Source: an uncultured Gemmatimonadota bacterium (lineage in GTDB: Bacteria > JAAXHH01). Taken from it: a stretch of 64,000 nucleotides of DNA. The stretch's first letter is position 1, and the number at the start of each line of letters is the position of its first letter. Of this stretch, positions 23,619 through 64,000 are shown piece by piece. The stretch covers positions 2,624,001-2,688,000 of the forward strand of contig OX638340.1 of NCBI GenBank assembly GCA_951812955.1, in the 5' to 3' direction. A model generated the notes under the pieces. It made no database searches, had not been told where the DNA came from, and was given only the letters and a program-made list of their open reading frames with translations. The translations under genes were made by a program, and so were the position numbers.

Positions 23619-23644
23619 TTAATCACAGAAGCGGAGAGCAGTAT

Positions 23645-26773: not shown

Positions 26774-26776
26774 CTG

Positions 26777-27460: not shown

Positions 27461-27525
27461 CGCGCAGTTCGAATAAACCAGTATCAGGTATTAACTGAAT
27501 CGTCGATTCATCCGCTTTTTTTAGA

Positions 27526-27921: not shown

Positions 27922-28271
27922 TGTGCCTCTAACTGGTATGAGCCAAAGTGGGTGGTTCTGCGACACATCTATCTTAGGGAATACAAGAAGCTACCCAGCT
28001 CATTTCTAGTATAACAAATTAGCGTGCTGGATAGTGTATTCGTCTCAATTCTTCTTTAGGTTTATAACGCGGTTGGAATTTCTATACACGGCCATCAAGC
28101 CGAAAAATCCAGTTTATATTAGGAGTTGTGTCTGAAACTTCGGACCTATGGCGGGCATTACTCGCGAGGATTTGTAAATCTTTATATAAAACTAAACTCA
28201 AGTTACTCGCCCAATCTATCGATTAATGGTTTCATCTTAGCAGTTGATGTTTAATCTGAAATGAATGGATA

Positions 28272-34882: not shown

Positions 34883-34890
34883 GGAACGGA

Positions 34891-35898
34891 CTACGCCGTG
34901 CCCAGGTAGAGGTCCCGCCCCGCCACCAGGCTGGCCATCTTGCGGTCCGCCACGCTGCGGGGAAGCATCCAGAAACCGCAGTCGGGGTGCACCCAACGCA
35001 CGCGCTCAGGGCCGAGTACGTCGACGGAATGCTCGATGCGCCGGGCGACCTCGTCCGGAGATTCGACCCCGTTGTCCTTGATGTCGATCACGCCCACGCC
35101 CAGGGCGATGTCTTCGCGCAGTTCTCTGAACAGCGGCAACTCGTCGTATCCCCGCCGGGCGAACTCCAGCACCAGGTGATTCACGTCGAGGTTGTTCAGG
35201 AAGCCCATAAGATCGTTCCACAGGCCGCTTTGGATGCTCTGGCCGCCGTAATTTCCGAAGCAGAGGTGCAGCCCCTTCTCGCCCTTCACGGCGCCCAGCA
35301 CGTGGTTGACGGGCTCGTGGGCCCAGCTCGCGTCCTTCGGGTGGCCGGTCAGATTGGCCTCGTCCACCTGCAAGATCGGCGCGTCGATCTCGCCGACCTG
35401 CTTGCGCAACACCTCCGCGATGTCCATCGTCATCTTCTGCAGATCGCCGTAGTGCTCGTCCAGCAACGTCTTGGCCAGCATGTAGGGCGAGGTGACGGTG
35501 AACTTGAGCGTCCGGTCCGTGAGGGGCCGGATCATCTTCCACGCGGCCGGAAGATTCAGCGTGCCCTCTTCGATCCAGTCCTTCACGATGCCGCCCGGGG
35601 TACTGCGAAAGGCCATCCCTTCCCGCTTTCTGAATTGGGCAAGGACCTCGCGGGAAACATCCGTCGTGATCCCGGACATGGGCCGGATGAAATACTCGAT
35701 CATCCCATTGGTCTCCGGGTGGCTGACGTCGAAACGGGAAAGCTCGCCGTCGGTGAGCACATCGATCCCGGACAGTTCCTGGGTCTTCAGGATCACCTTG
35801 GCCGCGTCGATCAGATTGGGCGTAGTGGGATAGGCCGCCAGCCAGTCGGGGATGGGATAGCTGCCAACTACGGTCGTCTTGATTGCGGGTACCGCCAT
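34891..35898 (-). CDS. Cobalamin-independent methionine synthase (MetE) catalytic-domain family protein (short form)
   Basis: 335 aa; VVGSYPIPDWL, DGE motif, …HLCFGNYGG… typical of MetE C-terminal domain-like proteins. Confidence 0.6.
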   Translation of the reverse strand: MAVPAIKTTVVGSYPIPDWLAAYPTTPNLIDAAKVILKTQELSGIDVLTDGELSRFDVSHPETNGMIEYFIRPMSGITTDVSREVLAQFRKREGMAFRSTPGGIVKDWIEEGTLNLPAAWKMIRPLTDRTLKFTVTSPYMLAKTLLDEHYGDLQKMTMDIAEVLRKQVGEIDAPILQVDEANLTGHPKDASWAHEPVNHVLGAVKGEKGLHLCFGNYGGQSIQSGLWNDLMGFLNNLDVNHLVLEFARRGYDELPLFRELREDIALGVGVIDIKDNGVESPDEVARRIEHSVDVLGPERVRWVHPDCGFWMLPRSVADRKMASLVAGRDLYLGTA

Positions 35899-36203
35899 TG
35901 TGTGGACTCCCTTTACCGATAAGGTCCTTCAGAGCCTTCGTTCCGGTTCCAGTTCTTTTCACATAACATAACGCTGACATCAAGTATACATTATGCATCT
36001 CAAAGTGGGTATCAATACCGAACACTCAGGTCCTGCAACAGCGTGTTATTTCCGATGGCGCGTGCCGTTGCCATCCGTTGCCATTGGTACGCTGTAAGAT
36101 GTCGCTTTAAGTTGCCGTAGTAGGACCGCAATAGGTATGCATACGCGCCTCATGTCCATTCTCCGCATACGGATCCAGAAAGCCCTGCCAGCAAGGTCCT
36201 GAG

Positions 36204-38567: not shown

Positions 38568-38641
38568 CCGGGGCCGGGGGCGGGAGTTCTGATTTCAGTT
38601 CCCGCCGGGGCAAGCGAGGTTTCGTAGCGATACGCAAAGGG

Positions 38642-40066
38642 ATGGTCAACTCCATGAAACACGTCGTCATCGTGGGCGGCGGCTTTGCCGGACTGAACGC
38701 GGCCAAGAAACTCGGCGGCCGGACCGATGTCCGCGTCACCCTGGTGGACCGGCAGAACTACCACCTGTTCCAGCCGCTCCTCTACCAGGTGGCCATGGCC
38801 GGCCTGTCGCCCGCCGATATCGCCACGCCCATACGCAGCGTGCTTGCCCGGTGCGGGAACATTTCGGTGCTGCAGGGCTCGGTCGAGCGGGTCGATCTGC
38901 AGGAACGGACCGTATCGGTGGATTTCGGCCAGCTTCAATATGATTATCTGATGCTCTGTTGCGGGTCGATCCCGAGCTATTTCGGTCACGAGGACTGGGA
39001 GGAGCACGCACCCAGCCTGAAGACGATTCCGCAGGCCACCGAGATTCGCCGGCGCCTGCTGAGTGCCTTCGAAGAAGCGGAACGGACCGACGACACTGAG
39101 CGGCGCCGGCAACTGCTGACCTTCGTCGTCATAGGCGGCGGACCCACCGGAGTGGAGCTAGCGGGCGCCATCGGCGAAATGAGCCGTTTCACCCTCGCGC
39201 GGGACTTCCGCAACATCGACACGAAACTTACCCGCGTCATCCTGATCGAATCGGGCCCGCGCATCCTCTCGATGTTCTCCGAAAAGCTGGCGTCCCGGGC
39301 GACGCGGGACCTGGAAAAGCTCGGCGTGCAGGTCTGGCCGAACACGCTCGCGACGGATATAGACGAGCATGGCGTGCAGGCGGGACCGGAACGCATCGCG
39401 TCCTCGACGGTACTCTGGGCGGCGGGCGTTCGGGGCGTTGAAATCGAGGGACAGCGGCAACAGGGCGTGGAGGCGGAGCGAGTGGGGCGCGCGGAAGCAG
39501 ACTGCGAGGGACACGTGGAGGTAGACTGCGAGGGACACGTGGAGGTAGACCGCGGTGGACGCGTGGAGACGGACCGCGGAGCGCACGTGGAGGTGGACCG
39601 CGGGGGACGCGTAGTCGTCAACGAAGACCTGAGCATCCCAGGACACCCGAACGTGTTCGTCGCGGGCGACCAGGCCTGTTTTACCCACCAGACCGGCAGT
39701 CCCCTTCCGGGCACAGCGCCCGTGGCTATCCAGCAGGGACGCTTCGTGGCACAGACTATTCGCCGCGACCTCGCGTGCAGACCGCGTGAGGCCTTTCGAT
39801 TCGTCGACAAGGGACAGATGGCGACGATCGGTCGCAGCCGTGCCATCGTGGAAATCGGTAAACTCAGATTCTCAGGCTGGTTCGCGTGGGTCACCTGGCT
39901 GGTGGTGCACGTCTACTTCCTCGTGGGTTTCAAGAACCGGCTGCTGGTCGTACTGCACTGGGCCTGGTCCTATCTGACCTTCCGCCGCGGCGCCAGGCTG
40001 ATCGTGGAGCGCGAGTGGCGTTTCGGCGGGCGCAAGGACGAGACCATGCCTGACAGGGAAGAATAA
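38642..40066 (+). CDS. ndh: Type II NADH dehydrogenase (NDH-2) family FAD-dependent oxidoreductase, carrying an in-frame repeat insertion
   Basis: KHVVIVGGGFAGLNAAKKL FAD fold; second dinucleotide fold FVVIGGGPTGVELAG; …NVFVAGDQA…; start at ATG 38642 (MVNSMKH). Confidence 0.8.
   Translation: MVNSMKHVVIVGGGFAGLNAAKKLGGRTDVRVTLVDRQNYHLFQPLLYQVAMAGLSPADIATPIRSVLARCGNISVLQGSVERVDLQERTVSVDFGQLQYDYLMLCCGSIPSYFGHEDWEEHAPSLKTIPQATEIRRRLLSAFEEAERTDDTERRRQLLTFVVIGGGPTGVELAGAIGEMSRFTLARDFRNIDTKLTRVILIESGPRILSMFSEKLASRATRDLEKLGVQVWPNTLATDIDEHGVQAGPERIASSTVLWAAGVRGVEIEGQRQQGVEAERVGRAEADCEGHVEVDCEGHVEVDRGGRVETDRGAHVEVDRGGRVVVNEDLSIPGHPNVFVAGDQACFTHQTGSPLPGTAPVAIQQGRFVAQTIRRDLACRPREAFRFVDKGQMATIGRSRAIVEIGKLRFSGWFAWVTWLVVHVYFLVGFKNRLLVVLHWAWSYLTFRRGARLIVEREWRFGGRKDETMPDREE
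39500..39619 (+). repeat. In-frame 24-bp tandem repeat x5 inside ndh (DCEGHVEV-DCEGHVEV-DRGGRVET-DRGAHVEV-DRGGRVVV)
   Basis: First two units identical; last unit corresponds to the conserved DRxGRVVV(N/D) segment of NDH-2. Confidence 0.85.
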
Positions 40067-42456
40067 TGCCCGGAAGCAAGTTCACCATAAGTCTACGGCA
40101 CATGAGCCGCCAACGGGGATATACCGCGATAAACGTCCTCGGGCTGGCCGTGGGCCTGGTCTGCGCGATCCTGATCTTCCTGTACGTGCGCTGGGAACTG
40201 AGCTACGACCGCTACCACGAAAAGGCCGACCGTATCTACCGGGTAACGCTCAACGACAGCGCCCGATCGCCCCGTGAACTGGGTCCGATACTGCAGGCCG
40301 ACTTCCCCGAAATCCAGCAGTACGCCCGATTGCTTCCCACCATTGGAACCTGGATCATGAAGTACGAAGACCGGGTTTACTATGAAAAGAACGTGTACTG
40401 GGCCAACAACGAGCTGTTCCACGTATTTGACTTTCCCCTCGTCAGAGGAGATCCCGATCATGCCCTCGTAGCACCGTACACGGCGGTGATCAGCGAGGAT
40501 ACGGCCAGGAAATATTTCGGCGAGGACGATCCCATGGGGAAGACCATAATCGCCGACAATGGCTACATGCTGCTGACCGTCACAGGCGTCATGGAGAATG
40601 TTCCGGAAAACTCCCATTTTCATCCCGAATTCCTGATATCCTTGCCTACCGGATATGACAAATTCCAATGGAGCGAGACCCCGAGAATCTGGTATAGCGA
40701 CCTTTTTTACACCTACGTCGTCATGCCTGAAGGCCATCCGCCGTTGGAGACCCAGGAGAAACTGCCCGGTTTCGTGGAGAAACACGTAGAAGCGAGTTTC
40801 CTGGAGGACATCGGCCGTTTCGAACTGACGCTGCAACCCCTCACCGATATCCACCTTCATTCCCATCTTGAAAACGAGCACGGCACGAACACCGATATCT
40901 CCTACGTGTATATCCAGTCCGCCATCGGGCTGTTCATCCTGATCATCGCTTCGGTGAATTATGTAAACCTGTCCACCGCGCAGTTCGCGCACCGGGCCCG
41001 CGAGATCGGCATGCGCAAGGTTCTGGGGGCGTCCCGGGGACAGTTGATTCGGCAATACCTGGGCGAATCGGTCCTGATGACCATCGCGGCCCTGTTGATC
41101 GCCCTGGCGGCGGTCTACTTTCTTGCGCCGTATTTCGACGCGCTGCTGGGCCTGCCGGTAACCGCGGTCCATGCGCTGCACCCCCTGTGGTGGTTCGCCA
41201 TGCCGGCCATCGCGATCCTCATCGGGCTCCTTTCGGGTGGTTACCCGGCCCTTTTGTTCTCCTCCATGCGGGTCATTCCGGGGCTCAAGGCAGCGCAGCC
41301 CTACCAGCTTGGCGGCGCGTGGTCCAGGAAGATCCTGGTCATCGCCCAGTTCGTCATTTCCATCGCGCTGATCATCGGAACGGGCATCCTGTTCAGCCAG
41401 TTGAACTTCATTCAGAACAAGAAACTGGGATTCGAAAAGGACCTGGTGATCGTGATTCCCACGGTTCAGCAGGTGGCGGTCAACTACCAGCCGTGGAAAG
41501 ATGCCCTGTTGCAGTACACCGGAGTGGACGGCGTGAGCCAGGCCATCACCCTGCCCGGCCTGTTCGGTACCATAGGCCGGATGTCGACCGGTACGATCCA
41601 GCGCGTCGAGGATCCGGACCACGTCCGGCATACCGTCCAGGGATTTCAGGCCGCCGTGGATTTCGTGGAGACGATGGGCATGGAACTGCTCGCGGGCAGG
41701 TCTCATCGCGGGTCATTCAGAAACGACACCGAAACTGAAAACATCGTGATCAACGAAGCGGCTATGCGCGTCCTGGGCTGGGAAACGCCCGAAGAGGCCA
41801 TCGGCCGGCAGGTCCGCTTCGCCAGTGGAAACATCCACACGGTAGTCGGCGTGGTCCGGGACTTTCACTTCCGTACGCTTCACCTTGCCATCGAGCCGCT
41901 CGTATTCTTTCACGGCACAGGCCTGCACCTGGTGGTCCGGATCCGACCCGAAGACATCAGTCGCACGCTGGAATTCATCGAAGGGACATGGTCCGAGTTC
42001 TTCCCCGATTTCCCCTTTGCCTATACGTTTCTCGACGAAGACATCGACCGCCTGTATCGGACAGAGGCTCGTATCGGCTACTTCTTCGGCGCATTCGCCC
42101 TGGTTGCTGTTTTCCTCACCTGCCTGGGCCTCGTCGCGCTGGTATCGTTCACGGTCGAACGGCGGACCCGGGAGATCGGCATACGCAAGGCACTGGGCGC
42201 TTCCGTGCGGCGGCTACTCGCCATGCTGTCCGCCGAGTTCGTAGGACTTGCGCTCGTTGCCAATGTCTTCGCCTGGCCTGCGGCGTGGCTGATCATGACC
42301 CGCTGGCTCGAGGATTACGCCTACCGTGTCGAGTTCGGATGGGACATATTCTTCCTTTCGGGCGGCGCAGCGGTGCTGATCACCCTGGTCACCATCGGGT
42401 ACCACGTAATCCGGACTGCGTTGGCCAACCCCGCGGACGTGTTGCGGAGTGAGTGA
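40066..42456 (+). CDS. MacB/FtsX-type ABC transporter permease (paralog 3)
   Basis: 796 aa; ATG overlaps ndh stop (TAATG). Confidence 0.8.
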   Translation: MPGSKFTISLRHMSRQRGYTAINVLGLAVGLVCAILIFLYVRWELSYDRYHEKADRIYRVTLNDSARSPRELGPILQADFPEIQQYARLLPTIGTWIMKYEDRVYYEKNVYWANNELFHVFDFPLVRGDPDHALVAPYTAVISEDTARKYFGEDDPMGKTIIADNGYMLLTVTGVMENVPENSHFHPEFLISLPTGYDKFQWSETPRIWYSDLFYTYVVMPEGHPPLETQEKLPGFVEKHVEASFLEDIGRFELTLQPLTDIHLHSHLENEHGTNTDISYVYIQSAIGLFILIIASVNYVNLSTAQFAHRAREIGMRKVLGASRGQLIRQYLGESVLMTIAALLIALAAVYFLAPYFDALLGLPVTAVHALHPLWWFAMPAIAILIGLLSGGYPALLFSSMRVIPGLKAAQPYQLGGAWSRKILVIAQFVISIALIIGTGILFSQLNFIQNKKLGFEKDLVIVIPTVQQVAVNYQPWKDALLQYTGVDGVSQAITLPGLFGTIGRMSTGTIQRVEDPDHVRHTVQGFQAAVDFVETMGMELLAGRSHRGSFRNDTETENIVINEAAMRVLGWETPEEAIGRQVRFASGNIHTVVGVVRDFHFRTLHLAIEPLVFFHGTGLHLVVRIRPEDISRTLEFIEGTWSEFFPDFPFAYTFLDEDIDRLYRTEARIGYFFGAFALVAVFLTCLGLVALVSFTVERRTREIGIRKALGASVRRLLAMLSAEFVGLALVANVFAWPAAWLIMTRWLEDYAYRVEFGWDIFFLSGGAAVLITLVTIGYHVIRTALANPADVLRSE

Positions 42457-46033: not shown

Positions 46034-46701
46034 GGTTCAGGCTCCAGGTACGATTCCCAGAGGTCGACGTATACGGCGCTGTTCAAGTTGGCCGATTCCC
46101 CCCACAGATCACGCCCCTCGAAGCGAACGTTGTAGAGATGCCTTCCCTCGTCCACGCCCTGGGCGCTCAGGTCTGGGTACACCTGTGACCCGTAGTGCTC
46201 CCGCACGATCCCCGTGTGGCCTCGAACATAACGCGGTGCGCGTGTGTGCCCGCTTGGGTGGCGGTTGATTGCGCGCACACGGTCGCCGGGCGTAAAGCGG
46301 GCCGGGCCGGGCGCGGGCCGGACGTAGCTCGCAGTCATGTAGGGAGCCCCCAGCACCTGTTCGGCATGCACGACCCGTTCCATGATGTATTCCGGCACGG
46401 GGGTCGCCGCCCTTCCGGTCTGCAATTCCTCTTCGGAAACGAGGCCGGACCTGACCAGTTGCTTCTGTATACCCGCGAACCAATTCTCGTAGTATGAGTT
46501 GGCGAGATATTCGGCAGGAGGCAACTGCTCCCTGTTGTGGCGGGACATGTCGATGTTCCACAGTCCCAGAAGCCCGATAAGACGGACGATGCCGTACACC
46601 CGGCTCTCCCATTCCTCGTGGAAGACCGGCTCCTCGGACTCCGGTTCAGGTTGCACCGGTCCGAACCCCTTCATCCCGCCCAGGTCGTGTACGCCCTTCA
46701 T
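46030..46701 (-). CDS. Nitrile hydratase beta subunit
   Basis: Starts [10 protein letters not shown] (classic MNGxHDLGG); C-terminal …[10 protein letters not shown]…. Confidence 0.8.
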
Positions 46702-47333
46702 GGTTTGCCGCCTTGCGCTGCCGGTTGCCGCGCCTCCTCGACTCCGATCATGGCGTTGCGCGTCACGAGTTCCATGAGTTCCTCTTCGCTCCATCCCTCC
46801 GTGCCTTCGGGTCGCTGCGGCAGCACGAGGTAGCGCATCTCAGAGGTGGAATCCCATACGCGCACCTCTTTCCGATCGGCAATCTCCGAACCGAACTGCC
46901 TGATCACGCCTCGCGGATCGATGACGGCCTGCGCTCTGTATGGCGCGGACTTGTACCAGACGGGCGGCAGGCCAAGGAGCGGCCACGGGTAGCAGGAGCA
47001 GAGCGTACAGACGACGAGGTTGTGTACGTCGTCCGTGTTTGCCACGACACGCATCTGCTCGCCCTGCGCCCCCACGTAGCCCATCGATGCGATGGCGGCA
47101 TCCGGGTCGTCAAGCAGCCACCGCCTGTACGCTTCGTCCGACCAGGCATGCGCAACGACGTGCTTGCCGTTCGCCGGACCGATCTTGTCCTGGTACAGGT
47201 CAATGAGCGCGTCCAGCGCCTCCGGATCGACGAGGCCTTTCTCCACGAGCAGTGACTCGAGCGCTTTCACGCGCAACTCGATATCCGGGGGCGGCTCCGT
47301 GTGGTCTTGATGGTGCCGGTGATCGATGGCCAT
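46698..47333 (-). CDS. Nitrile hydratase alpha subunit, cobalt-type
   Basis: Metal-binding [10 protein letters not shown] (Co-type CTLCSCY rather than Fe-type CSLCSCT). Confidence 0.85.
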
Positions 47334-47683: not shown

Positions 47684-48781
47684 TTACGCCTCGGTTAAAC
47701 TCAAATCCGTGATTGCTGCAATAAATCTCTCGGACACTGCTCGTGCGAGTCTGTTTTCTCGGTCATTTTCCGGATTCAAAGAAGCTACCATAAGTACAGC
47801 CTGGATAAAATAACGTAGCATGGCGAGACGGTAGTCTTTCCAGCAATCATCCAAGGTGTATCCTCTGACTCCATTGGCCTTCAGGGTTTCATGGTAGAAT
47901 TTAAGGAGTTGGCGTTCTTCGGCTTGTCGTTTTGGTGTGGTTTTTAAACATCCACCGATATACCATGCGATATCCGAAACGCCCTCTCCGCACGATACGT
48001 CCTGCCAGTCGATCACGGCGAAGCCCGGCTCTCCAAGAGAAGCACCAAAAAACACGTTCTCCAAACGAAAATCTCCGTGAACCATGGTTCTCGGCGGTTT
48101 ACCCAATTGGGATTCATTTTTTAACTTCTCGGGTAATTGTTTTCCAAATGTCTTGACTGCATCCGTCATCAAGTCTTCAGTTTTATCGGCAAAGACTGGA
48201 AAAGCTTCTTTATACTGATCAAGGATCCAATTCGAAACAGCGTCAGAATCCTTCGGCGAATTCGCCAGCCAATCAAACGCTTCGAGTCTTTTGTTTTCCC
48301 ACCAATAGGCGTGAAACCTGGCTATTTCGTGGAGAGCATGTGCCGTCTCTTTCATTGTACTTCCACTGATTTGATCTCCAACTTTCGCGGGAGCAAGGTC
48401 TTCAAGAATCCTGATGTACTTTCCATGAGTAACACTCATCGCACTGAAATAACAGAGGGGTGTGCGAAGGGGTATCTCGCTGGCAATTTGCTGATAAAAC
48501 AAAATCTCGCACTTATCTGGTGTAGGTAGACGCGTTTTTGCTCGTAGAGGCTCATCTGGTGCATGTAGTTTGGCAATCAGCTTTTTGGGCAGTTCTGATT
48601 GAGGTTGATTAAAGCCAAGGTGCAAGCGTGCTAACTGTCCGTCACAAGTCAATTCTGCAATCGGCTCGATACGAAGCGAGGCTATACCGACATTCGAAAA
48701 CGTATTTGTTGAAACTAGTGCTGCGGTGAGCCAATGAGATGTTATATCCAGAGGTGTATTGGGAATACTCAAAAGAGTCAT
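47684..48781 (-). CDS. APH/choline-kinase-like phosphotransferase (kinase-like fold, HGDxxxxN)
   Basis: …MVHGDFRLENVFF… Brenner motif; …VIDWQDVSCGEG…; AT-rich relative to surroundings. Confidence 0.65.
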   Translation of the reverse strand: MTLLSIPNTPLDITSHWLTAALVSTNTFSNVGIASLRIEPIAELTCDGQLARLHLGFNQPQSELPKKLIAKLHAPDEPLRAKTRLPTPDKCEILFYQQIASEIPLRTPLCYFSAMSVTHGKYIRILEDLAPAKVGDQISGSTMKETAHALHEIARFHAYWWENKRLEAFDWLANSPKDSDAVSNWILDQYKEAFPVFADKTEDLMTDAVKTFGKQLPEKLKNESQLGKPPRTMVHGDFRLENVFFGASLGEPGFAVIDWQDVSCGEGVSDIAWYIGGCLKTTPKRQAEERQLLKFYHETLKANGVRGYTLDDCWKDYRLAMLRYFIQAVLMVASLNPENDRENRLARAVSERFIAAITDLSLTEA

Positions 48782-55761: not shown

Positions 55762-56650
55762 ATGGCTGATGACTCTACCACGACTGCTATACCACCAAAA
55801 CAACCGGATACGAGTAGTTCGATTGCAATTAAGTGGCTTCATTCCAAGCTTGTGGAGATTGAAGACCATACATGCATGGATGCGTTAACGATATTTGGTC
55901 CCATAACGGAAACAGTAGATCATCGAGTCAGGTTGGCGATCGAGAGTTTACCGAATCACCGCAACGGCTTGTTGGTCATTATCGATACACCCGGTGGAAT
56001 TGTAGAGGTAGCCGAACGTATTGTAACCACTATCAGGCATTACTACAAAGAGGTCAAGTTTCTCATACCTGATAAAGCGATGTCAGCAGGTACGGTTCTG
56101 GTGATGTCTGGAGATGCGATATTGATGGATCACTTTTCTTGTTTAGGCCCAGTTGATCCACAGTTGTATATCGAAGGCAAACCAATCCCGACGTCTGTCC
56201 TTTCTTATCTTGAACAATATGAACGATTTGTTCAAAAATCCATGGAAGGTACCTTGACGAGTGCTGATTTGGTTCTGCTTCAAAAGCTTGACGCTGCTGA
56301 CTTACGACAGTACGAACTGGCGGCCGAGTTATCTGTGCGCCCGTGATTGGCTTGTTCGGTATAAATTCAAGGATTGGTCCAAGCACAGTTCCACAGGGAA
56401 CACGGTTTCAAAAGAGGAAAAAACAATCCGTGCCGAAGAAGTTGCGAGAGCGCTTAATGATCAGGAAAGATGGGGTACCCATGGAAGGGGAATAAACCGA
56501 GAAGTTCTTGTCAAATTAAAGCTCAAGATTGATAATTTGGAATCCGATACTGAATTAAGTAGTCTAACAAAAGAGTATTTCTGGTTTTTTAGAGACTTAG
56601 CATTCAAAGAGGAGTCGCAAAGTCTTGTACACAACCGGTTATTCATCTGA
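55762..56650 (+). pseudogene. SDH-family (PF01972-like) Clp-fold serine protease, apparently frameshifted (55762..56346 frame A then 56261..56650 frame B)
   Basis: LLVIIDTPGGIVEVAERIVTTIRHY…KAMSAGTVLVMSGDAILMDHFSCLGPVDPQL matches the family core; frames A+B sum to the family's usual ~290 aa; AT-rich. Confidence 0.55.
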
Positions 56651-56660
56651 GAGGAATATC

Positions 56661-56882
56661 ATGAAAACAAATGACAAACTTGTCCTCACTAAGGAACAAC
56701 TGGTTGAGAACCCCGCTGTCAATCCCGGGATTGTAAAAGAAGCGCTGAAAATGCGCCTTGAACTGGAGCGTTTAGGAGTATGGGATAACAGTGGGACACG
56801 TGTGGTATCGCCTTCCGAAATCAGGCCAGCTAAGAATCCCATCGGGAATATCAGACGTCGGTCTATTTCTCAAATCCGGTAA
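56661..56882 (+). CDS. Hypothetical small protein
   Basis: 73 aa from MKTNDKLVLTKEQL; AT-rich like the preceding protease gene. Confidence 0.3.
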   Translation: MKTNDKLVLTKEQLVENPAVNPGIVKEALKMRLELERLGVWDNSGTRVVSPSEIRPAKNPIGNIRRRSISQIR

Positions 56883-57015: not shown

Positions 57016-58065
57016 TCATCCACTCCTCACCCACTCCAGATCGAACCGGACCAACTTGATCGTCTCGTAGGGATGATCTTCTCCCCGTTCATAGAGGCAG
57101 GCGACGGTACCGTCTGGAAGCACGGCGAGGGATGAATAGGCGGACGGCCCGGGATGCAGCACCTTTTCACGTGGCCAGGATCCGCCGGCTTCATCGGAAA
57201 GTCTCACGGTCAGGTTACACCGCTCGTCCCGGCTGGCCGGATTCGAGAACAGCAGGCGGTCGCCCGCGCCGGGATACCGGACGAGGGCCGCCTGGCAGAT
57301 CGGTTCGATCAGCGTTTCGTCGTGGCGCTGGTTACGCCACGTCATCCCGCCGTCTCCGCTGACGGCGAACTGCCTGGTGCGCAAGGCCCGGTCGTAATTT
57401 CGCATGTTGAGCAGGACGTCGCCGTTTTCCAGCTCGGTGACGCAGCATTCGTTGACCTGGTCTTGCAAAGTCGTGCCGCCCATCCGCCAGGTTTCCCCAT
57501 GGTCTTCGCTGTATATGACATGAGAATAGTAGCGTTTGGTGCTTGCCTCTATGTGGTCGCAGGGTATCAGCATCCGGCCCGACGATAGCTGAATTCCGTT
57601 GCCCGGTCCGGTGGCGTACCACGTCCAGTCCGCGCGCTTCGCGGTGGAGGTGATATCCCGCGGTTCGCGCCACGTGCGGCCGTCGTCTTCGCTGGCCGTG
57701 ACCCAGACGGTCCGTGAGCCCTGGCTCGTCCCCTCGATGATCTCGGATTCGCGGTCGATCCCCATGTTGTGGGTCATGAGCAGCCATACTTTCCCGGTCT
57801 CGCCGTCTACCACCGGACAGGGATTGCCGCAGGTATTCCCTGCGTCCGCCCAGACCAGCTCCTGGTCCGACCAGGTGCGCCCGCCGTCTTCGCTCCGCTT
57901 CACCAGCATGTCGATATCGCCGGTGTCGCTTCGGCTGCTCCTCCGGCCTTCGCAGAAGGCGAGGACCGTACCCCGGGTTGTCGCGATGATCGCTGGAATG
58001 CGGTAGGTATCGTAACCTTCCGTGCCGCTGGTCCAGATATCGGATTGTTTACAGGAGCCGCTCAT
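57016..58065 (-). CDS. Exo-alpha-sialidase (GH33, BNR/Asp-box repeats)
   Basis: YRIP motif (YDTYRIPAI) and Asp-boxes SEDGGRTW, SEDDGRTW, SGDGGMTW. Confidence 0.85.
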   Translation of the reverse strand: MSGSCKQSDIWTSGTEGYDTYRIPAIIATTRGTVLAFCEGRRSSRSDTGDIDMLVKRSEDGGRTWSDQELVWADAGNTCGNPCPVVDGETGKVWLLMTHNMGIDRESEIIEGTSQGSRTVWVTASEDDGRTWREPRDITSTAKRADWTWYATGPGNGIQLSSGRMLIPCDHIEASTKRYYSHVIYSEDHGETWRMGGTTLQDQVNECCVTELENGDVLLNMRNYDRALRTRQFAVSGDGGMTWRNQRHDETLIEPICQAALVRYPGAGDRLLFSNPASRDERCNLTVRLSDEAGGSWPREKVLHPGPSAYSSLAVLPDGTVACLYERGEDHPYETIKLVRFDLEWVRSG

Positions 58066-58164
58066 GGGATTTCCTGGGCAATGAACGAGATTTCAGTCAA
58101 TCGGCCGACCACACCGGATCGGTTCAAGGCCTGAACTGATATATGCGGCCGGATTTCGTCATTT

Positions 58165-60120
58165 TCAGTTGAATATGATGTGCCCCGTTATGCCCGTCAA
58201 TCCATCTATGATGACCCATAGGCCTGCGCTGACGAACTCGCCGAGAATCAGCCCCAGGAAGAAGGGCAGCATCTTCCGATAGATGTCGATCCCACCGTAC
58301 TTGAGGATGAGTCCCTTGATCATCCAGGCGAGGAATATGGAAAACCACGCGGTGAGGAGCGGGGCGGAGGCGCCAACGGGAAATCCGATGAAATGGAGGG
58401 GCCACCAGATGAACTTCTGCCTCACGTACATAAGCGCCCACATGATGGTAGCGCCCAGACCGAAGAAGAACCATCGCCCGGCGGGTTCGGACGTGGAGGT
58501 GATGGTGGTCGCATAGTAGCTGAACCGGTTCTGCTGAAGCTCTCCGAAGAACTGCCAGTTGAGGTTGATGCCGCCGTGTTCATAGGCCAGGTACATGACC
58601 GTGTAGATCGAGCTGGCCAGGCTGCACAGGATGGCCAGGCCGATGGCCGCGGTGAGCCAGCGCTGGTTCCGGATCTTCGCCGTATCGGCCAGTTTCAGGC
58701 CGTTGACCATTGAGGGCATGATGAGCGTTCGGGTGTGGGTGAACCAGAACTTGGTCAATCCGATGGCCACCAGGTTGCGCGCGCCGACGAAGGGGCCGGT
58801 GAATCCGTGGATCATGAACTCCTGGGGATTGAAGGTCTCCGCGAAGATCACGCCCCCTTCCGCCACGATCCGCGCGAAGCCGACGTAGACCGCGAGTACC
58901 AGGATCAGCAGAATGATGGCCAGCCAGGCGGAGAGGCCGATCATCCATAGCCAACCGAGCAGGAACAGGACGCCCAGTCCCCCGCCGATCACGGCGAAAC
59001 GGTAGGAAAGGCATTCGTTGGAGTCGTCCGGCTCGCCGCCTCCGCGGAACGCCTTGCCCAGGATCTCGCGGATATGCGCCCGGGCCAGCCAGAGACTGAA
59101 CAGGGCGAGGACCATCAGCGCGCCGAACATCTGGTATTCACCCGGCAAGGTGGTACTGCCCGCCAGGTCCACGCCGAAGCTCGCGTTTACCAGGTTTTGC
59201 AATCGCCCGATGAGAAAGAAGAGCCACAGGCTGAATGAAATCTCGAGACTGAGCAGATAGGCGAAGCCCACCAGCGGGAACGACAGGTTGATGGGCAGCA
59301 CCAGCTGGTTGTTGAAGAGCCCGATGGTCTCCTGGAAGTAAATTGTCGGGAAAAAGTAGATATAGTTGTGTACGGCGTTCCAGGCGTTGATCAGGAAGGG
59401 AATGGCGAACCCCGCCCACATGATCCGGTTCCGGAAGAACGACGCAAGGCGGGAACTCGACCCATCCTCTCCCGGATCGATCATCTCGGCGGGCAGCTTG
59501 ACCAGGGGGAAGACGAGACGTTCCCGTTCCACCCATTGCTTGCGCAGGATTACGGTGATGCAGAACACCACGAAATATAGCACCAGGACGAAACTCAGCC
59601 AGGCGGCCAGGGGTACGGCCCATTCGCCCCAGGGGATGCTCCCGCCCCGGGGCAGGCCTTCGAAGAACGATCGCACCGCCTCGGAGTCCTGGGGCATCAG
59701 CCAGGGCTCGACATGGGGCCCCACGGTCTCGAGCCAGCGGTTCTCCGGCGTGGCGTAGTACATGGAGGCCATGGCCGGCAGGAGGACCTCGGTCAGGCCG
59801 TAAGACGGGATGGCCGACGCGATGAGCGACATGATGTAGACGACGGCCAGTTCGCCCTGCGTGAGCGCGTGGCCCGGCGACCAGGTCCGCAGCAGCGTGT
59901 TCACGATTCCGACGAGGACGGCAAAGAGGAAGACCACGCCGATTGGGGTGAAGTTGCTGCCCAGGTACGATCCCTGGATGATCATATTGGAATAGGGATC
60001 GGCGATACCCAGGATCAACGAGCAGGCCATCCCCACGGCCACGGCGCGAGGGGTGACCATCTCCCTCGGCGTAGATACGTGATGTTCATCCCGGGATGTA
60101 ACTGGACGGGGGACCGACAT
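58165..60120 (-). CDS. Large polytopic membrane protein of unknown family
   Basis: 651 aa, >12 hydrophobic segments, no recognised transporter signature. Confidence 0.5.
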   Translation of the reverse strand: MSVPRPVTSRDEHHVSTPREMVTPRAVAVGMACSLILGIADPYSNMIIQGSYLGSNFTPIGVVFLFAVLVGIVNTLLRTWSPGHALTQGELAVVYIMSLIASAIPSYGLTEVLLPAMASMYYATPENRWLETVGPHVEPWLMPQDSEAVRSFFEGLPRGGSIPWGEWAVPLAAWLSFVLVLYFVVFCITVILRKQWVERERLVFPLVKLPAEMIDPGEDGSSSRLASFFRNRIMWAGFAIPFLINAWNAVHNYIYFFPTIYFQETIGLFNNQLVLPINLSFPLVGFAYLLSLEISFSLWLFFLIGRLQNLVNASFGVDLAGSTTLPGEYQMFGALMVLALFSLWLARAHIREILGKAFRGGGEPDDSNECLSYRFAVIGGGLGVLFLLGWLWMIGLSAWLAIILLILVLAVYVGFARIVAEGGVIFAETFNPQEFMIHGFTGPFVGARNLVAIGLTKFWFTHTRTLIMPSMVNGLKLADTAKIRNQRWLTAAIGLAILCSLASSIYTVMYLAYEHGGINLNWQFFGELQQNRFSYYATTITSTSEPAGRWFFFGLGATIMWALMYVRQKFIWWPLHFIGFPVGASAPLLTAWFSIFLAWMIKGLILKYGGIDIYRKMLPFFLGLILGEFVSAGLWVIIDGLTGITGHIIFN

Positions 60121-60388
60121 GGAGGAGCCTTTCGGGCCGGCACGTGGCGTACGTCTCGCGGTCGGTCATCGGGGACGACCGGTGAAGGAAAAGGGTATAG
60201 CGTCGGGAAAGCCGATGTCAAGTTGATTGTCCGTGTGCCGGGGGCAGGTTGTCCCGTGTCAAGCATGTCGGCGTGCTCCTTTCTCGGCTTACTCGGTGCG
60301 GTGGGTGCGGCCGGCGGTACCCGGTTGCCTCCGGTGAACACGAAGATAGACTTGACGCTGCCCTTCTCCTCGCATACGGTTGTAGCCT

Positions 60389-61204
60389 ATGATGCTCACC
60401 AGTTTCCAGAATCCCCGGGTCAAGGCGATTCGGGCTCTTTCGCGGCGTAAAAACCGTCGGGAGACCGGGTTGTTCTTCGCGGAAGGCATCCGGCTCGCGG
60501 GCGAGGCCGTGCAGACCGGGGCGGACATCGAAACGCTCGTGGTCGCTCCGGAACTGCTGCGCAGCGATTTCGGACAAGATACGGTGCGCCGCGCGGAGCA
60601 GGATGGTGTCGAGACGCTGAACGTCAGCACCGCGGTGTTTCAGACGCTTTCGATGAAGGACGGCCCGCAGGGTATCGGGGCTGTCGTCCGGCAAAGGTGG
60701 ACCGCGCTCGACGAGGTGAGCGCGGACGACTTGGCGCCTGGCAAGACACTCGGCTGGGTGGTTCTCGAGGACGTGGGCAACCCGGGCAACCTGGGTTCGA
60801 TCCTGCGCACGAGTGAGGCGGTGGGTGGGTCCGGTGTCATCCTGCTGGGTGATACGGCGGACCCATACGATCCTGCATCGGTACGTGGCAGTATGGGGTC
60901 CATTTTCACGCAGCGGGTCGTTCGAACCTCGCTCGAATCCCTGATCGACTGGCAGAACGAGACCGATCTTCCGATGGTCGGCGCGTCAGACGCCGCGACG
61001 GTCGATTACCGGGATGCCGAATATGCCCCACCCATCCTCCTGTGCCTGGGTAGCGAACAACACGGTCTGTCTGAAATCCAACGCGCCGCCTGCGATCAGG
61101 TCGTACGCATTCCCATGGTCGGCCGGGCCGATTCCCTGAACCTGGCCGTGGCTGCCGGCGTGCTGCTGTACGATGTTTTCAATTGGGCGCGTGGTGCGGA
61201 CTGA
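60389..61204 (+). CDS. TrmH/SpoU-family RNA 2'-O-methyltransferase
   Basis: SpoU substrate-binding N-domain and SPOUT motifs LEDVGNPGNLGSILRTSEAVG, …LCLGSEQHGLS…, SLNLAVAAGVLLY. Confidence 0.8.
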   Translation: MMLTSFQNPRVKAIRALSRRKNRRETGLFFAEGIRLAGEAVQTGADIETLVVAPELLRSDFGQDTVRRAEQDGVETLNVSTAVFQTLSMKDGPQGIGAVVRQRWTALDEVSADDLAPGKTLGWVVLEDVGNPGNLGSILRTSEAVGGSGVILLGDTADPYDPASVRGSMGSIFTQRVVRTSLESLIDWQNETDLPMVGASDAATVDYRDAEYAPPILLCLGSEQHGLSEIQRAACDQVVRIPMVGRADSLNLAVAAGVLLYDVFNWARGAD

Positions 61205-61315
61205 CCGATTCCGTTTAATCGAGTTTTGCTTGTCATGATCGCGCCGGCCGGGTTATTATACCGTTCTGACTTTCGCAATCACAGGATACTCAATCTACAA
61301 CAAAGAGGTCGACCC

Positions 61316-62476
61316 ATGCCAGTTACCCGCCGCGCTTTCCTGGAAACCTCCGCCCTCGCGTTGACCGGTCTGGCCGCGTCCGCGAAGGCACACGCCGACA
61401 CTGCACCCCAGGATACGAGTTCTGTCCTCGCTCCGCCGACGGTAGTCGCGTCGCGTAACGGTATTCGCGGCGTCAGGAAGGCCTACGAGATGATGACGCA
61501 GGACCAGGCCGACCCACTCGACGCGGTCATCGCCGGCGTGAACATCCAGGAGCTGGACCCCAATGACCAGTCCGTAGGGTACGGGGGCCGTCCCAACGCG
61601 GACGGTGTCGTTACCCTGGACGCATCCGTCATGCACGGACCCACCCGGCGGGCCGGTTCGGTCGCCGCGCTGGAGGACATAGCCTCGGCGTCGTTGGTGG
61701 CCAAGGCGATCATGGACTATACCGATCACATCATGCTGGTCGGAAAAGGCGCGAAGCGCTTTGCCCTCGGCCTGGGATTCAAGGAACAGGACCTGTTGTC
61801 CGAGGAGAGCAGGCAGGACTGGCTGCGCTGGCGGTCCCAGCTCAGTCCGGACGACGACTGGCTGGACCATGAGGACGACATCGTGATCGATCGGCCGGGC
61901 GGCACGATCAACATGTGCGGGGTGGACGCCAACGGCGACATCGGCAGCGTAACGACCACGAGCGGCCTGTCCTGGAAGATCCCGGGCCGCGTGGGCGACA
62001 GCCCCATAATCGGTACGGGGCAGTACTGCGACAACGACGTGGGCGCTGCCGGGTCCACGGGCCGAGGCGAAGCGAACATCAAGGTATGCGGGGCCTTTCT
62101 GACCGTGGAATTCATGCGGCAAGGCAAGTCACCCCAGGAAGCCTGTCTGGCTACGCTCGAGCGGGCCGTGGCCATGACGGAGGACCGGCTGCTGGACGGC
62201 AAGGGCCGCCCCCTATTCAGCCTGAACTTCTACGCCGTGTCCAAGGACGGCCGGTTCGGCGGGGCGACCATGTACCAGTACCCGGACGAGTATCTCGAGG
62301 TGCTGCCGGGACGGGGCAATTACGCCGTGGCCAACGCGGATGGCGCCCGCCACGTGCCTCTACAGTACGTGTACGACCAGACGCAGCTTCCCGGATCGCT
62401 GAAGGACCGGATGATGGAGCGCGTGGAGCGGATCAGGAAGGAACGAGCCGAGATGGAAAACCAGGAGAACCAATAG
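61316..62476 (+). CDS. Asparaginase-2 family Ntn hydrolase, glycosylasparaginase-like, Tat-exported
   Basis: Tat signal MPVTRRAFLETSALALTGLAASAKAHA; Ntn-hydrolase asparaginase-2 family pattern around …GTINMCGVD… and …IIGTGQYCDNDVGAAGSTGRGE…. Confidence 0.6.
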   Translation: MPVTRRAFLETSALALTGLAASAKAHADTAPQDTSSVLAPPTVVASRNGIRGVRKAYEMMTQDQADPLDAVIAGVNIQELDPNDQSVGYGGRPNADGVVTLDASVMHGPTRRAGSVAALEDIASASLVAKAIMDYTDHIMLVGKGAKRFALGLGFKEQDLLSEESRQDWLRWRSQLSPDDDWLDHEDDIVIDRPGGTINMCGVDANGDIGSVTTTSGLSWKIPGRVGDSPIIGTGQYCDNDVGAAGSTGRGEANIKVCGAFLTVEFMRQGKSPQEACLATLERAVAMTEDRLLDGKGRPLFSLNFYAVSKDGRFGGATMYQYPDEYLEVLPGRGNYAVANADGARHVPLQYVYDQTQLPGSLKDRMMERVERIRKERAEMENQENQ

Positions 62477-62484
62477 AGGGTTTC

Positions 62485-63282
62485 ATGGTACTGAATGACC
62501 AGCAGATCGCCGCGTTCGAGGAATCGGGCTACCTGTTCTTTTCCGGATTACTCGACGAAGAGGAAGTGAAGACGCTGCAGGAGGCGGTTCCGGAAGTGCT
62601 AAGCCGCCAGGGACCCGAGGTGGTACGGGAGAAGGACGATCCCACGGCCGCCCGGCTGGCTTTCGGAGCGCATACCTATTCCGAGCCCTTCGGACGCCTG
62701 GCGCGGCTTCCCCGGCTGATGGACCCGGTCCGCCAGTTGGTGGGAGACGAGGTCTATCTCCACCAGACTCGCATGAATCCCAAGCAGGGCTTCGGAAGCG
62801 GGGCATCGTGGACGTGGCACCAGGATTATCCATCGTGGTACAAGGTGGACGGCATGCCCGAACCGAATTGCATCATGGCGTCGGTATTCATCGACGACTG
62901 CACGCCGGTCACATCTCCGCTCATGATCATTCCGGGGTCCCACCGATGGGGGCTGCTAAACTCGGAACTCCACGCTGACGCCAAAGGCCGGGGTTATCAC
63001 CTGTTTAACATCGACCGACCGACCCTGGAGCAGCTGGCCGACGAGCACGGCATCGAGCCGCTGATCGGCCCGGCGGGCTCGGTCGCCCTGATCCACAGCA
63101 ACATCGTCCACGGCTCTGCCGACAACGTATCGCCCTGGCGCAGGGCCATCTTCTACCTGATCTACAACGCGGTCGGCAACGCGTGCACTCGAGAGGTCCG
63201 GCCCTGGTACCAGAATAACCGGGACTTCACGCCCCTGGAACCGATCGAAGACGACGGGTTGCGGGTCCTCTCGACAGCCTGA
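62485..63282 (+). CDS. Phytanoyl-CoA dioxygenase (PhyH)/ectoine-hydroxylase-like Fe(II)/2OG oxygenase
   Basis: …WHQDYPSW… His/Asp motif and …IHSNIVHGSADN… distal His. Confidence 0.65.
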   Translation: MVLNDQQIAAFEESGYLFFSGLLDEEEVKTLQEAVPEVLSRQGPEVVREKDDPTAARLAFGAHTYSEPFGRLARLPRLMDPVRQLVGDEVYLHQTRMNPKQGFGSGASWTWHQDYPSWYKVDGMPEPNCIMASVFIDDCTPVTSPLMIIPGSHRWGLLNSELHADAKGRGYHLFNIDRPTLEQLADEHGIEPLIGPAGSVALIHSNIVHGSADNVSPWRRAIFYLIYNAVGNACTREVRPWYQNNRDFTPLEPIEDDGLRVLSTA

Positions 63283-63410: not shown

Positions 63411-64000
63411 TTAGTCCGCCGCATTCGCCGCCTGGATCGCGGCATGGATGTACCCGTAGGCGTAGGCGAATCCCACCTGGCCCGCCTCGGGTCCTGAAAT
63501 CCCGGGCACGTGATCGGGCATGATCATGTACTCGTACCCCACTTCTTTGTAGGTACGCATCGCCTTCAGCATATCGACGTCGCCCTCGTCGGGGAACACC
63601 TCCACGAAGTTGTTCAGCCGACCCTTGATGTTCCGGAAGTGGACGTTGAAGATCTTCTTCCTGCTGCCGAAATATCGGATCACGTCGTAGATCTCCTCCG
63701 AGGGGTTCTCCAGGCTTTCCGACATGCAACCCTGGCAGAAGTTCAGCCCGTTGTAGGGACTGTCATAGAGTTCGATCAGTTTCTTGAAGCCGTCCGACAT
63801 CCCCAGCACGCGGGCGACACCGCGGTACGTCCGGCCGTGCCCGATGCCCGGGTCCGACGGATGGCAGGCCATCTGGACCTTGTATTCTTCGGCCACGGGG
63901 ATGATCGTCTTCAGCCAGTGATCGATGCGTTCCCACATTTCGTCTTCATCGGCGGGCCCCCCTTCGAATTCGGGTCTGCCCTGGTCGAGCTTGTCGTATT
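63411..64000 (-). CDS. uxuA: Mannonate dehydratase (C-terminal part; gene continues past window end)
   Basis: 175-aa C-terminal segment …[13 protein letters not shown]… matches UxuA family; reading frame stays open to the window edge. Confidence 0.7.

What the first reader, a model, noticed from the sequence alone, without database searches (positions are those of the whole stretch)
57016..62476. N-glycan scavenging neighbourhood with an uncharacterised 651-aa polytopic membrane protein
A GH33 sialidase, a Tat-exported glycosylasparaginase-like Ntn hydrolase and, further on, mannonate dehydratase imply degradation of sialylated glycoconjugates. Immediately downstream of the sialidase is a 651-aa membrane protein with more than 12 TM segments and no recognisable transporter signature. 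It may be a new importer or sensor for the released sugars.
Basis: inference. Interest (0 to 1): 0.5.

Follow-up and report, generated by a model that had tools for sequence, protein, structure and literature searches.

The report
Transporter-plus-cytoplasmic-sialidase gene pair
The "mystery" membrane protein belongs to a large uncharacterised family (DUF6785/DUF6784) whose predicted structure matches a plant iron-chelate/oligopeptide transporter. It forms a conserved two-gene unit with a sialidase that has no export signal, which suggests the bacterium imports sialic-acid-capped molecules whole and removes the sialic acid inside the cell.

Summary
On the minus strand, however, the 651-aa membrane gene (58165-60120) lies upstream of the sialidase gene (57016-58065), not downstream.

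**Sialidase.** It carries the complete GH33 catalytic set but has no signal peptide.

**Linkage.** The pair recurs in every orthologue clade member that was informative except two. In one, five genes are inserted between the two genes. In the other, no sialidase lies within 8 kb. From the sialidase side, all 6 homologues at ≥67% identity have the transporter directly upstream; none of 74 at 55-63% identity do. Most of those 74 look exported, and some sit beside a NanM-SSF transporter and NanA.

**Rest of the neighbourhood.** The glycosylasparaginase, SpoU methylase, PhyH and UxuA genes are not conserved neighbours.

**Best reading.** An OPT-fold importer takes up sialylated oligosaccharides or glycopeptides, and the sialidase cleaves them in the cytoplasm. 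This is inferred, not shown.

**Verdict.** A new variant of a known kind, of moderate interest.

The parts
58165..60120 (-). 651-aa inner-membrane protein, Pfam DUF6785 (residues 23-516) plus DUF6784 (550-645). Predicted YS1/OPT-fold secondary transporter and first gene of the pair.
57016..58065 (-). 349-aa GH33-type exo-alpha-sialidase without a signal peptide; second gene of the pair. Catalytic set R22, D47, E206, R222, R282, Y310, E326. Asp boxes at 58, 125, 186 and 236.
   Evidence: 349 aa is the longest possible ORF. The N-terminus MSGSCKQSD... has no hydrophobic segment, and the same holds in all orthologues.
58066..58164 (-). 99-nt spacer between transporter stop and sialidase start, with an AGGAAA ribosome-binding site before the ATG. 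No terminator-like hairpin lies in the spacer, so co-transcription is likely (inferred).
60194..60221 (-). Promoter-like element TTGACA-N17-TATACC, about 74 nt upstream of the transporter ATG.
   Evidence: It is identical or nearly so in L084, L001 and L002, but these are close relatives, so the conservation carries little weight.
60164..60180 (-). Imperfect palindrome GGTCGTC-CCC-GATGACC between the promoter-like element and the start codon. Possible operator (speculative).
61316..62476 (+). Neighbour, not part of the conserved unit: Tat-exported glycosylasparaginase-like Ntn hydrolase. The ORF opens at 61226; the probable start is M31. T227 (ORF numbering) aligns with the first residue of the beta chain, the nucleophile.
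   Evidence: Absent from L081, L082, L086 and L087.
60389..61204 (+). Neighbour, not part of the unit: SpoU/TrmH-type RNA 2'-O-methyltransferase, transcribed divergently from the transporter.

Best explanation
A two-gene operon on the minus strand. The first gene encodes an inner-membrane secondary transporter with the Yellow-Stripe-1/OPT fold (Pfam DUF6785 plus DUF6784). By analogy with YS1, it probably works as a proton-coupled elevator-type carrier with a large central cavity. It would import a small sialic-acid-capped molecule intact: a sialyl-oligosaccharide or a sialoglycopeptide. The second gene encodes a GH33 exo-sialidase that stays in the cytoplasm and removes the terminal sialic acid there.

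Shown:
- the fold assignment on a predicted model
- the intact catalytic signature of the sialidase
- the absence of an export signal
- the conserved adjacency of the two genes

Inferred:
- direction of transport
- proton coupling
- identity of the substrate
- co-transcription
For: 2. **Sialidase.** E about 1e-46 to many solved GH33 sialidases. The Arg triad, Asp acid/base, Tyr/Glu nucleophile pair and four Asp boxes are invariant in six orthologues.
3. **Cytoplasmic location.** The longest ORF starts MSGSC.. and there is no hydrophobic N-terminus in any orthologue.
4. **Linkage from the transporter side.** The sialidase is adjacent in L001-L003 and L084 (85-99% id), L081 (78%) and L082/L083 (71%). 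The outer neighbours differ in the more distant ones.
5. **Linkage from the sialidase side.** All 6 metagenomic homologues at >=67% identity have the transporter orthologue directly upstream on the same strand. None of the 74 at 55-63% identity do.
6. **Contrast with the other sialidases.** 55 of those 74 have a strongly hydrophobic segment in the in-frame sequence upstream of the catalytic domain (signal-peptide- or lipobox-like leaders, or larger N-terminal extensions), against 0 of 6 in the linked clade. Exported ones (L095, L117, L118, L099) lie beside a NanM-SSF fusion and a DHDPS/NanA-family gene, the classic free-sialic-acid route.
7. **Family-wide context.**
   - About 7,800 cluster representatives at 50% identity.
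   - Up to 5 paralogues per genome among the 80 best loci.
   - Neighbours include MR_MLE dehydratases, GFO/IDH/MocA oxidoreductases, PfkB kinases, amidases, aldo-keto reductases and sulfatases.
   - All 6 neighbouring sulfatases examined also lack signal peptides.
Against: - No sequence-level link to OPT. Pfam OPT gives no hit even at E<=10, and the family profile finds nothing in PDB sequences. The fold evidence rests on a predicted model.
- The linkage is not universal. One orthologue (L086, 72% id) has no sialidase within 8 kb, and in L087 (74% id) five genes are inserted between the pair.
- Thirty-nine window ORFs were annotated with Pfam and the window was searched by tblastn with NanA and NanM-SSF queries. 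No sialic-acid catabolic gene (NanA, NanK, NanE) turned up, so the fate of the released sugar is unknown.
- Signal-peptide-less sialidases can act outside the cell after lysis, as shown for Clostridium perfringens NanH (PMC8092135).
- Known OPT substrates are peptides and metal chelates, not glycans.
- The signal-peptide assessment used a hydrophobicity heuristic, not a dedicated predictor.
Confidence: 0.5

Rival explanations
1. The transporter takes up free sialic acid, or another small solute. The sialidase acts outside the cell after lysis or non-classical release, as proposed for C. perfringens NanH.
For: NanH lacks a signal peptide yet reaches the medium by cell lysis. The gene pair alone does not fix the order of cleavage and import.
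Against: Exported homologues of this same sialidase use a different partner for free sialic acid, a NanM-SSF transporter with NanA. The DUF6785-linked clade is precisely the one that lacks a leader. The YS1 fold has a large cavity suited to substrates of 300-1000 Da. Sulfatases next to paralogues are likewise leaderless, which argues for a family habit of importing capped substrates.
Confidence: 0.15
2. The protein is a general oligopeptide or glycopeptide importer of the OPT type. The sialidase is only one of several downstream enzymes, and the true theme is peptide scavenging.
For: The OPT family carries oligopeptides. In orthologues L081, L086 and L087 a giant M28-peptidase-FtsX protein is encoded directly upstream, and in P0126 an FtsX/MacB_PCD protein is fused to a DUF6785 paralogue. 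M42 peptidases and amidases occur next to paralogues. A glycosylasparaginase lies nearby in the window.
Against: The M28-FtsX gene is absent from the window's own locus. Most paralogue neighbours are sugar-acid or sugar enzymes and sulfatases. There is no sequence similarity to OPT peptide transporters. This rival overlaps the main explanation if the peptide carries a sialoglycan.
Confidence: 0.15
3. The membrane protein is not an importer but an exporter, flippase or sensor, and its adjacency to the sialidase is regulatory or coincidental.
For: Direction of transport cannot be read from sequence. One orthologue lacks the sialidase.
Against: There is no signalling or enzymatic domain. The only structural relative is an uptake symporter. 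Neighbours across the family are catabolic, not biosynthetic. The pair is retained in different contexts, and the link holds from both sides.
Confidence: 0.07

Closest known systems
Barley Yellow Stripe 1 (HvYS1) and the OPT family (TC 2.A.67, Pfam PF03169)
   Different: About 12-13% sequence identity. No HMMER match to Pfam OPT or to the YS1 sequence. Bacterial, and mostly from uncultured phyla. Genomic partners are glycan- and sugar-acid-processing enzymes rather than peptide or metal-chelate pathways. None of this family has been characterised: a search of the paper library found nothing mentioning DUF6785 or DUF6784.
Import-then-cleave sialoside use in bifidobacteria (intracellular sialidases in sialic-acid clusters)
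   Same: The sialidase is predicted to be intracellular and encoded with an uptake system, so sialylated sugars are taken up before being cleaved (the mechanistic detail is from my own knowledge).
   Different: Those systems use ABC transporters with solute-binding proteins and carry the nan catabolic genes in the cluster. Here the partner is a single-polypeptide OPT-fold carrier, and no nan genes are nearby.
Canonical secreted sialidase with NanM mutarotase, SSS (SiaT-type) transporter and NanA lyase
   Same: The same sialidase family, at 55-63% identity to the window enzyme. This shows that these enzymes deal with sialic acids.
   Different: In those loci the sialidase carries a signal peptide or lipobox, and the transporter is a NanM-SSF fusion for free sialic acid. 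The window clade has lost the leader and has a DUF6785 transporter instead.
Clostridium perfringens NanH ('small', signal-peptide-less sialidase)
   Same: A compact catalytic-domain-only GH33 enzyme without an export signal.
   Different: NanH is thought to act after cell lysis and has no dedicated large-cavity importer encoded beside it.

Membership tests
Pfam DUF6785 / DUF6784 family | Full-length match to both profile HMMs above their gathering scores | tested here: met
   454.3 bits (cut-off 25) covering profile 1-498/498, and 103.9 bits (cut-off 26.4). More than 300 homologues share the same two domains.
OPT / Yellow-Stripe-like transporters (PF03169, TC 2.A.67) | Significant sequence or profile similarity to OPT family members | tested here: not met
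   No PF03169 hit at E<=10. A profile of 44 homologues finds no PDB sequence, including HvYS1, at E<=10.
OPT / Yellow-Stripe-like transporters (PF03169, TC 2.A.67) | The YS1 fold (core plus scaffold domains) over the whole chain | tested here: met
OPT / Yellow-Stripe-like transporters (PF03169, TC 2.A.67) | Internal inverted repeat of N- and C-halves | tested here: inconclusive
   hhalign of the N-half against the C-half profile gave nothing significant (E 0.38, 18 columns). Structural repeat analysis could not be run.
OPT / Yellow-Stripe-like transporters (PF03169, TC 2.A.67) | Proton-coupled inward transport | not testable with these tools
   Needs uptake assays.
GH33 exo-alpha-sialidase | Catalytic Arg triad, Asp acid/base and Tyr/Glu nucleophile pair | tested here: met
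   R22 (YRIP), R222, R282, D47, Y310, E206 and E326 align with the conserved residues of solved sialidases and are invariant in six orthologues.
GH33 exo-alpha-sialidase | Beta-propeller with Asp-box (S-x-D-x-G-x-x-W) repeats | tested here: met
   Four canonical Asp boxes at residues 58, 125, 186 and 236. BNR_2 match over residues 32-322.
GH33 exo-alpha-sialidase | Hydrolysis of terminal sialic acid | not testable with these tools
   Indirect support only: homologues at 55-63% identity sit beside NanM-SSF and NanA-family genes.
Canonical nan (sialic-acid utilisation) cluster | NanA lyase and a NanT/SiaT/TRAP-type sialic-acid transporter near the sialidase | tested here: not met
   No DHDPS/NanA hit in the window or in 15 orthologous loci by tblastn. 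The only SSF-like hit is weak and 42 kb away (15232-15807). Pfam annotation of 39 window ORFs shows no nan gene.
Glycosylasparaginase (Ntn hydrolase), for the neighbouring gene | Closest similarity to characterised glycosylasparaginases, plus the Thr nucleophile at the autoprocessing site | tested here: met
   1p4k at E 1.3e-59, against about 1e-30 for isoaspartyl peptidases. T227 aligns with residue 1 of the beta chain. The residues before it are G-G rather than the H-D of the Flavobacterium enzyme.
Conserved 'N-glycan scavenging' gene neighbourhood | Co-occurrence of sialidase, glycosylasparaginase and UxuA across related genomes | tested here: not met
   The glycosylasparaginase, SpoU and PhyH genes are found only in relatives with 85-99% identity (L001, L002, L084). 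They are absent around the 71-78% orthologues.

The most novel reading that the evidence does not exclude
DUF6785/DUF6784 proteins are a large, unrecognised branch of the YS1/OPT elevator fold. In uncultured glycan degraders (Gemmatimonadota, Latescibacterota, Poribacteria and others) they import anionic, 'capped' glycans or glycopeptides whole, whether sialylated, sulfated or uronate-containing. Leaderless cytoplasmic sialidases and sulfatases then remove the caps. This would be a single-polypeptide route for 'selfish' uptake of host or algal glycoconjugates, distinct from the SusCD, ABC, TRAP and SSS routes.
Probability: 0.35. Interest if true: 0.7.

Novelty: new variant of a known kind. Interest (0 to 1): 0.5.

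Why it matters
This would be the first functional lead for a protein family with roughly 7,800 sequence clusters at 50% identity and no characterised member. It would also extend the OPT/Yellow-Stripe fold, known for peptides and metal chelates in eukaryotes, to glycan uptake in bacteria.

It offers one answer to an open puzzle: why some bacteria make sialidases, and sulfatases, with no export signal. It also bears on how sponge-associated and marine Gemmatimonadota and Latescibacterota feed on sialylated and sulfated host matrix. GH33 genes are reported to be enriched and laterally transferred in sponge symbionts (PMC8163846).

The cassette is only two genes, so it is easy to test in a heterologous host.

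Tried and rejected
- **Sequence link to OPT.** Pfam at E<=10 and a 44-sequence profile against all PDB sequences both found nothing.
- **Internal repeat.** hhalign of the two halves gave nothing significant.
- **AlphaFold-database fold search.** The library was not available.
- **Exact-sequence look-up of the window protein in public assemblies.** Not on record.
- **Literature on DUF6785, DUF6784, or OPT together with sialidase.** Nothing relevant.
- **Promoter/terminator scan.** No more sites than in shuffled sequence. The promoter-like element I report comes from an alignment of close relatives only.
- **Rfam scan of 55.5-64 kb.** No RNA family.
- **N-glycan neighbourhood idea.** Rejected as a conserved unit, because the glycosylasparaginase and UxuA genes do not travel with the pair.
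- **Sensor idea.** Rejected, because there is no signalling domain.
- **Clade-specific residues in the sialidase-linked transporters.** Examples are K208, K457, H462 (D in 72% of others), R532, and loss of R270, R428 and R618. Without coordinates I could not place them in the cavity, so they remain candidates only.
- **Gene calling in fetched loci.** I used a crude longest-ORF method and a hydrophobicity heuristic for leaders. Counts are approximate.
Full report
**What is there.** The window has about 60% G+C. Its closest public relatives are Gemmatimonadota metagenome-assembled genomes, including a sponge-derived one (L003, 99% identity over residues 70-651 of the transporter).

On the minus strand lie a 651-aa ORF (58165-60120) and, 99 nt further on, a 349-aa ORF (57016-58065). 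On the plus strand, running away from them, lie:
- a SpoU-type RNA methyltransferase (60389-61204)
- an Asparaginase_2 Ntn hydrolase (ORF 61226-62476, probable start 61316, twin-arginine leader)
- a PhyH/ectoine-hydroxylase-like dioxygenase (62488-63282)
- on the minus strand, the C-terminal part of a UxuA-family gene that runs off the window end (63411-63938)

The membrane gene, however, is the first gene of the pair, not the one 'downstream' of the sialidase.

**The membrane protein.** It is not unclassifiable. It matches Pfam DUF6785 (6e-136, whole profile) and DUF6784 (6e-30). NCBIfam has no model for it. A search of the paper library found nothing mentioning either DUF.

The family is large. 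A profile of 44 homologues finds 7,805 cluster representatives at 50% identity with E<=1e-3, and 2,834 with E<=1e-30. Named sources are mostly Latescibacterota, Gemmatimonadota, Poribacteria, Planctomycetota, Omnitrophota and similar uncultured groups. Several copies occur per genome, up to five from one MAG among the best 80 loci alone.

An AlphaFold2 model built on the alignment is confident (pLDDT 86, pTM 0.89). Against solved structures it matches one protein only, barley Yellow Stripe 1:
- Foldseek E 2.4e-8, TM 0.65-0.70 over the whole chain

YS1 was the only OPT-family entry among the structural matches. Its authors described it as a new fold with a 'YS core' and a scaffold domain. It works as a proton symporter by a proposed elevator movement, and has a large central cavity (PMC9691689).

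At the sequence level the relationship is invisible. Pfam OPT gives no hit at E<=10, and the family profile finds no PDB sequence. I therefore treat the protein as YS1/OPT-like in fold and probable mechanism, but not as a demonstrated member of the OPT sequence family.

Two stretches are almost invariant across the family: YYATPENxW (121-129) and DDSxExLSYR (365-374). They fall in extended segments between helices. They may correspond to the two hairpin loops of the YS core that hold substrate and protons in YS1. This is inference only.

**The sialidase.** It matches dozens of solved GH33 sialidases at E of about 1e-46 to 1e-30. Examples are the Micromonospora viridifaciens enzyme, Bacteroides and gut-metagenome enzymes, and human cytosolic Neu2.

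The catalytic set is complete and invariant in six orthologues, and there are four canonical Asp boxes. The set comprises R22 in YRIP, D47, E206, R222, R282, Y310 and E326.

The 349-aa ORF is the longest possible, and it begins MSGSCKQSD. There is no hydrophobic leader, and all orthologues start the same way. The enzyme is therefore predicted to be cytoplasmic.

**Is the adjacency meaningful?**

*From the transporter side.* Of the 80 best genomic loci, only the three close orthologues carry the sialidase. Those three are too similar to the window to be informative, so I looked at more distant orthologues on metagenomic contigs:
- L081 (78% identity) and L082/L083 (71%) have the sialidase directly downstream. 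The remaining neighbours differ partly (L081) or entirely (L082).
- L087 (74%) has the sialidase 4.5 kb downstream, after five inserted genes.
- L086 (72%) has none within 8 kb.

*From the sialidase side.* I scanned metagenome contigs with the sialidase alignment.
- All six hits at >=67% identity have a transporter orthologue (77-99% identical) immediately upstream on the same strand.
- None of the 74 hits at 55-63% identity has one, although about 39 of them have enough upstream sequence to show it.

The 74 unlinked homologues differ in a telling way. In 55 of them the in-frame sequence upstream of the catalytic domain contains a strongly hydrophobic segment. These are signal-peptide- or lipobox-like leaders, or larger N-terminal extensions. 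None of the six linked homologues has one.

Some exported homologues lie beside a NanM-mutarotase/SSF-transporter fusion and a DHDPS/NanA-family gene. That is the textbook route: sialidase outside, free sialic acid imported, then cleaved by the lyase. So within one sialidase family, the branch that lost its leader is the branch paired with the DUF6785 transporter. This is the strongest argument that, in this branch, import comes before cleavage.

**The rest of the family.** Same-strand neighbours of the 38-49% identical paralogues are diverse:
- enolase-superfamily (MR_MLE) dehydratases
- GFO/IDH/MocA oxidoreductases
- PfkB kinases
- aldo-keto reductases
- amidases
- M42 peptidases
- CMP-sugar-type cytidylyltransferases
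- sulfatases
- second DUF6785 copies in tandem
- FG-GAP/ASPIC, T9SS-tagged and PpiC proteins

The nearest outgroup to the sialidase-linked clade (P0015, 49% identity) is followed by a sulfatase. All six sulfatases next to paralogues begin directly with the catalytic domain and have no leader. This pattern fits a diversified importer family feeding cytoplasmic catabolism: many paralogues, each beside a different set of enzymes, several of which are leaderless 'de-capping' hydrolases. It does not fit a housekeeping protein or a sensor.

**The supposed N-glycan neighbourhood.** The Ntn hydrolase really is glycosylasparaginase-like and probably periplasmic. But it, the SpoU gene, the PhyH gene and the UxuA gene accompany the pair only in relatives whose transporter or sialidase is 85-99% identical (L001, L002, L084). 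Even there an extra gene is inserted in L084. Around the 71-78% orthologues they are absent.

In three of those orthologues (L081, L086, L087) a giant M28-peptidase/FtsX protein is encoded directly upstream of the transporter. In a distant paralogue (P0126) an FtsX/MacB_PCD protein is fused to the DUF6785 domain. This keeps a glycopeptide substrate on the table, but it is not a feature of the window itself.

No sialic-acid catabolic genes were found. I annotated 39 window ORFs with Pfam and searched the window by tblastn with NanA and NanM-SSF queries.

**Mechanism proposed.** An OPT-fold, probably proton-driven carrier brings a small sialylated glycoconjugate across the inner membrane. The leaderless GH33 enzyme then removes the sialic acid in the cytoplasm.

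A promoter-like TTGACA-N17-TATACC lies about 74 nt upstream of the transporter (60194-60221), followed by an imperfect palindrome (60164-60180). The 99-nt spacer before the sialidase has a ribosome-binding site and no terminator, so one transcript is likely.

The shown parts are the fold (on a model), the catalytic signature, the lack of a leader and the linkage. Direction of transport, coupling ion, substrate and co-transcription are inferred. I put the whole chain at about 0.5.

**Rivals.**
- Uptake of free sialic acid, with the sialidase released by lysis as for C. perfringens NanH.
- A general peptide or glycopeptide importer.
- An exporter, sensor, or chance neighbour.

The first is weakened by the contrast with exported homologues, and the third by the two-sided linkage test. 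The second overlaps the main reading.

**Comparison and novelty.** Import-then-cleave use of sialosides with an intracellular sialidase is known from bifidobacteria, where ABC transporters do the uptake (the mechanistic detail is my own knowledge). The YS1/OPT fold is known for metal chelates and peptides.

What is new is the combination:
- an uncharacterised, very large bacterial family with that fold
- its pairing here with a cytoplasmic sialidase, and elsewhere with cytoplasmic sulfatases and sugar-acid enzymes

I rate it a new variant of a known kind and moderately interesting. Everything rests on prediction and gene context, the fold assignment is easy to reproduce, and the substrate is unknown.

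Noticed in passing
window 19741-29905: Low-G+C island (41-49% against about 60%). It carries a type I restriction-modification system (HsdM 19741-22422, HsdS 22419-23618, HsdR 23645-26773), a YgjP-like metallopeptidase (26777-27460) and a HipA-like kinase (29015-29905, minus strand). Probably horizontally acquired.
   Followed up: partly
window 55762-56882; L084 13220-14098: The segment just past the sialidase stop has low G+C (43-46%). It holds an SDH-type ClpP-like protease gene that looks split by a frameshift (55762-56346 and 56261-56650), plus an 85-aa ORF. At the same position the 94% orthologue locus L084 has a BrnT-like toxin pair and a duplicated fragment of the sialidase 3' end (residues 284-349). 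The site looks like an insertion hot spot.
   Followed up: partly
L081 5290-9927; L086 3343-7920; L087 3265-7842; protein P0126: A giant (about 1,525-1,545 aa) M28-peptidase/FtsX protein is encoded directly upstream of the transporter in three orthologous loci. In P0126 (2,120 aa) an FtsX/MacB_PCD protein is fused to a DUF6785/DUF6784 domain that is 38% identical to the window protein. This may be a functional partnership or a gene-calling artefact. It is absent from the window.
   Followed up: partly
L005, L007, L022, L049, L070, L085 (neighbours of DUF6785 paralogues): All six Cys-type sulfatases encoded near DUF6785 paralogues start directly with the catalytic domain (M..PNILF..) and have no signal peptide. 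This would place them in the cytoplasm, which is unusual for sulfatases.
   Followed up: partly
window 780-4390: Three LacI-family regulator genes in tandem (780-1796, 1966-3006, 3089-4390), followed on the opposite strand by a PhyH dioxygenase and a GFO/IDH/MocA oxidoreductase.
   Followed up: no
window 32495-42456: Three paralogous MacB_PCD/FtsX permease genes of about 790 aa (32495-34882, 36204-38567, 40066-42456), preceded by a DASS/CitMHS-type anion symporter (30867-32453).
   Followed up: no
window 15217-16740: A 507-aa ORF with weak similarity to sodium:solute symporters (23% identity to the SSF part of a NanM-SSF protein, E 2e-9). It is 42 kb from the sialidase and was not annotated further.
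   Followed up: no
window 46698-47333: Nitrile hydratase alpha-subunit gene (Pfam 1.2e-83). A low-G+C kinase-like gene (EcKL/APH, 47684-48781) lies next to it.
   Followed up: no
L087 10090-14293: In one orthologue, five genes are inserted between the transporter and the sialidase: a dodecin, an MTTB-type methyltransferase, a URO-D-like protein and two unknowns. URO-D-like genes also recur beside unlinked sialidase homologues (L126, L148, L151).
   Followed up: no
L005 9899-13982: Two DUF6785/DUF6784 genes in tandem in a Latescibacterota chromosome. Several homologues carry 100-350 extra residues inserted between the two Pfam domains or at the N-terminus (P0141, P0207, P0267, P0122).
   Followed up: no
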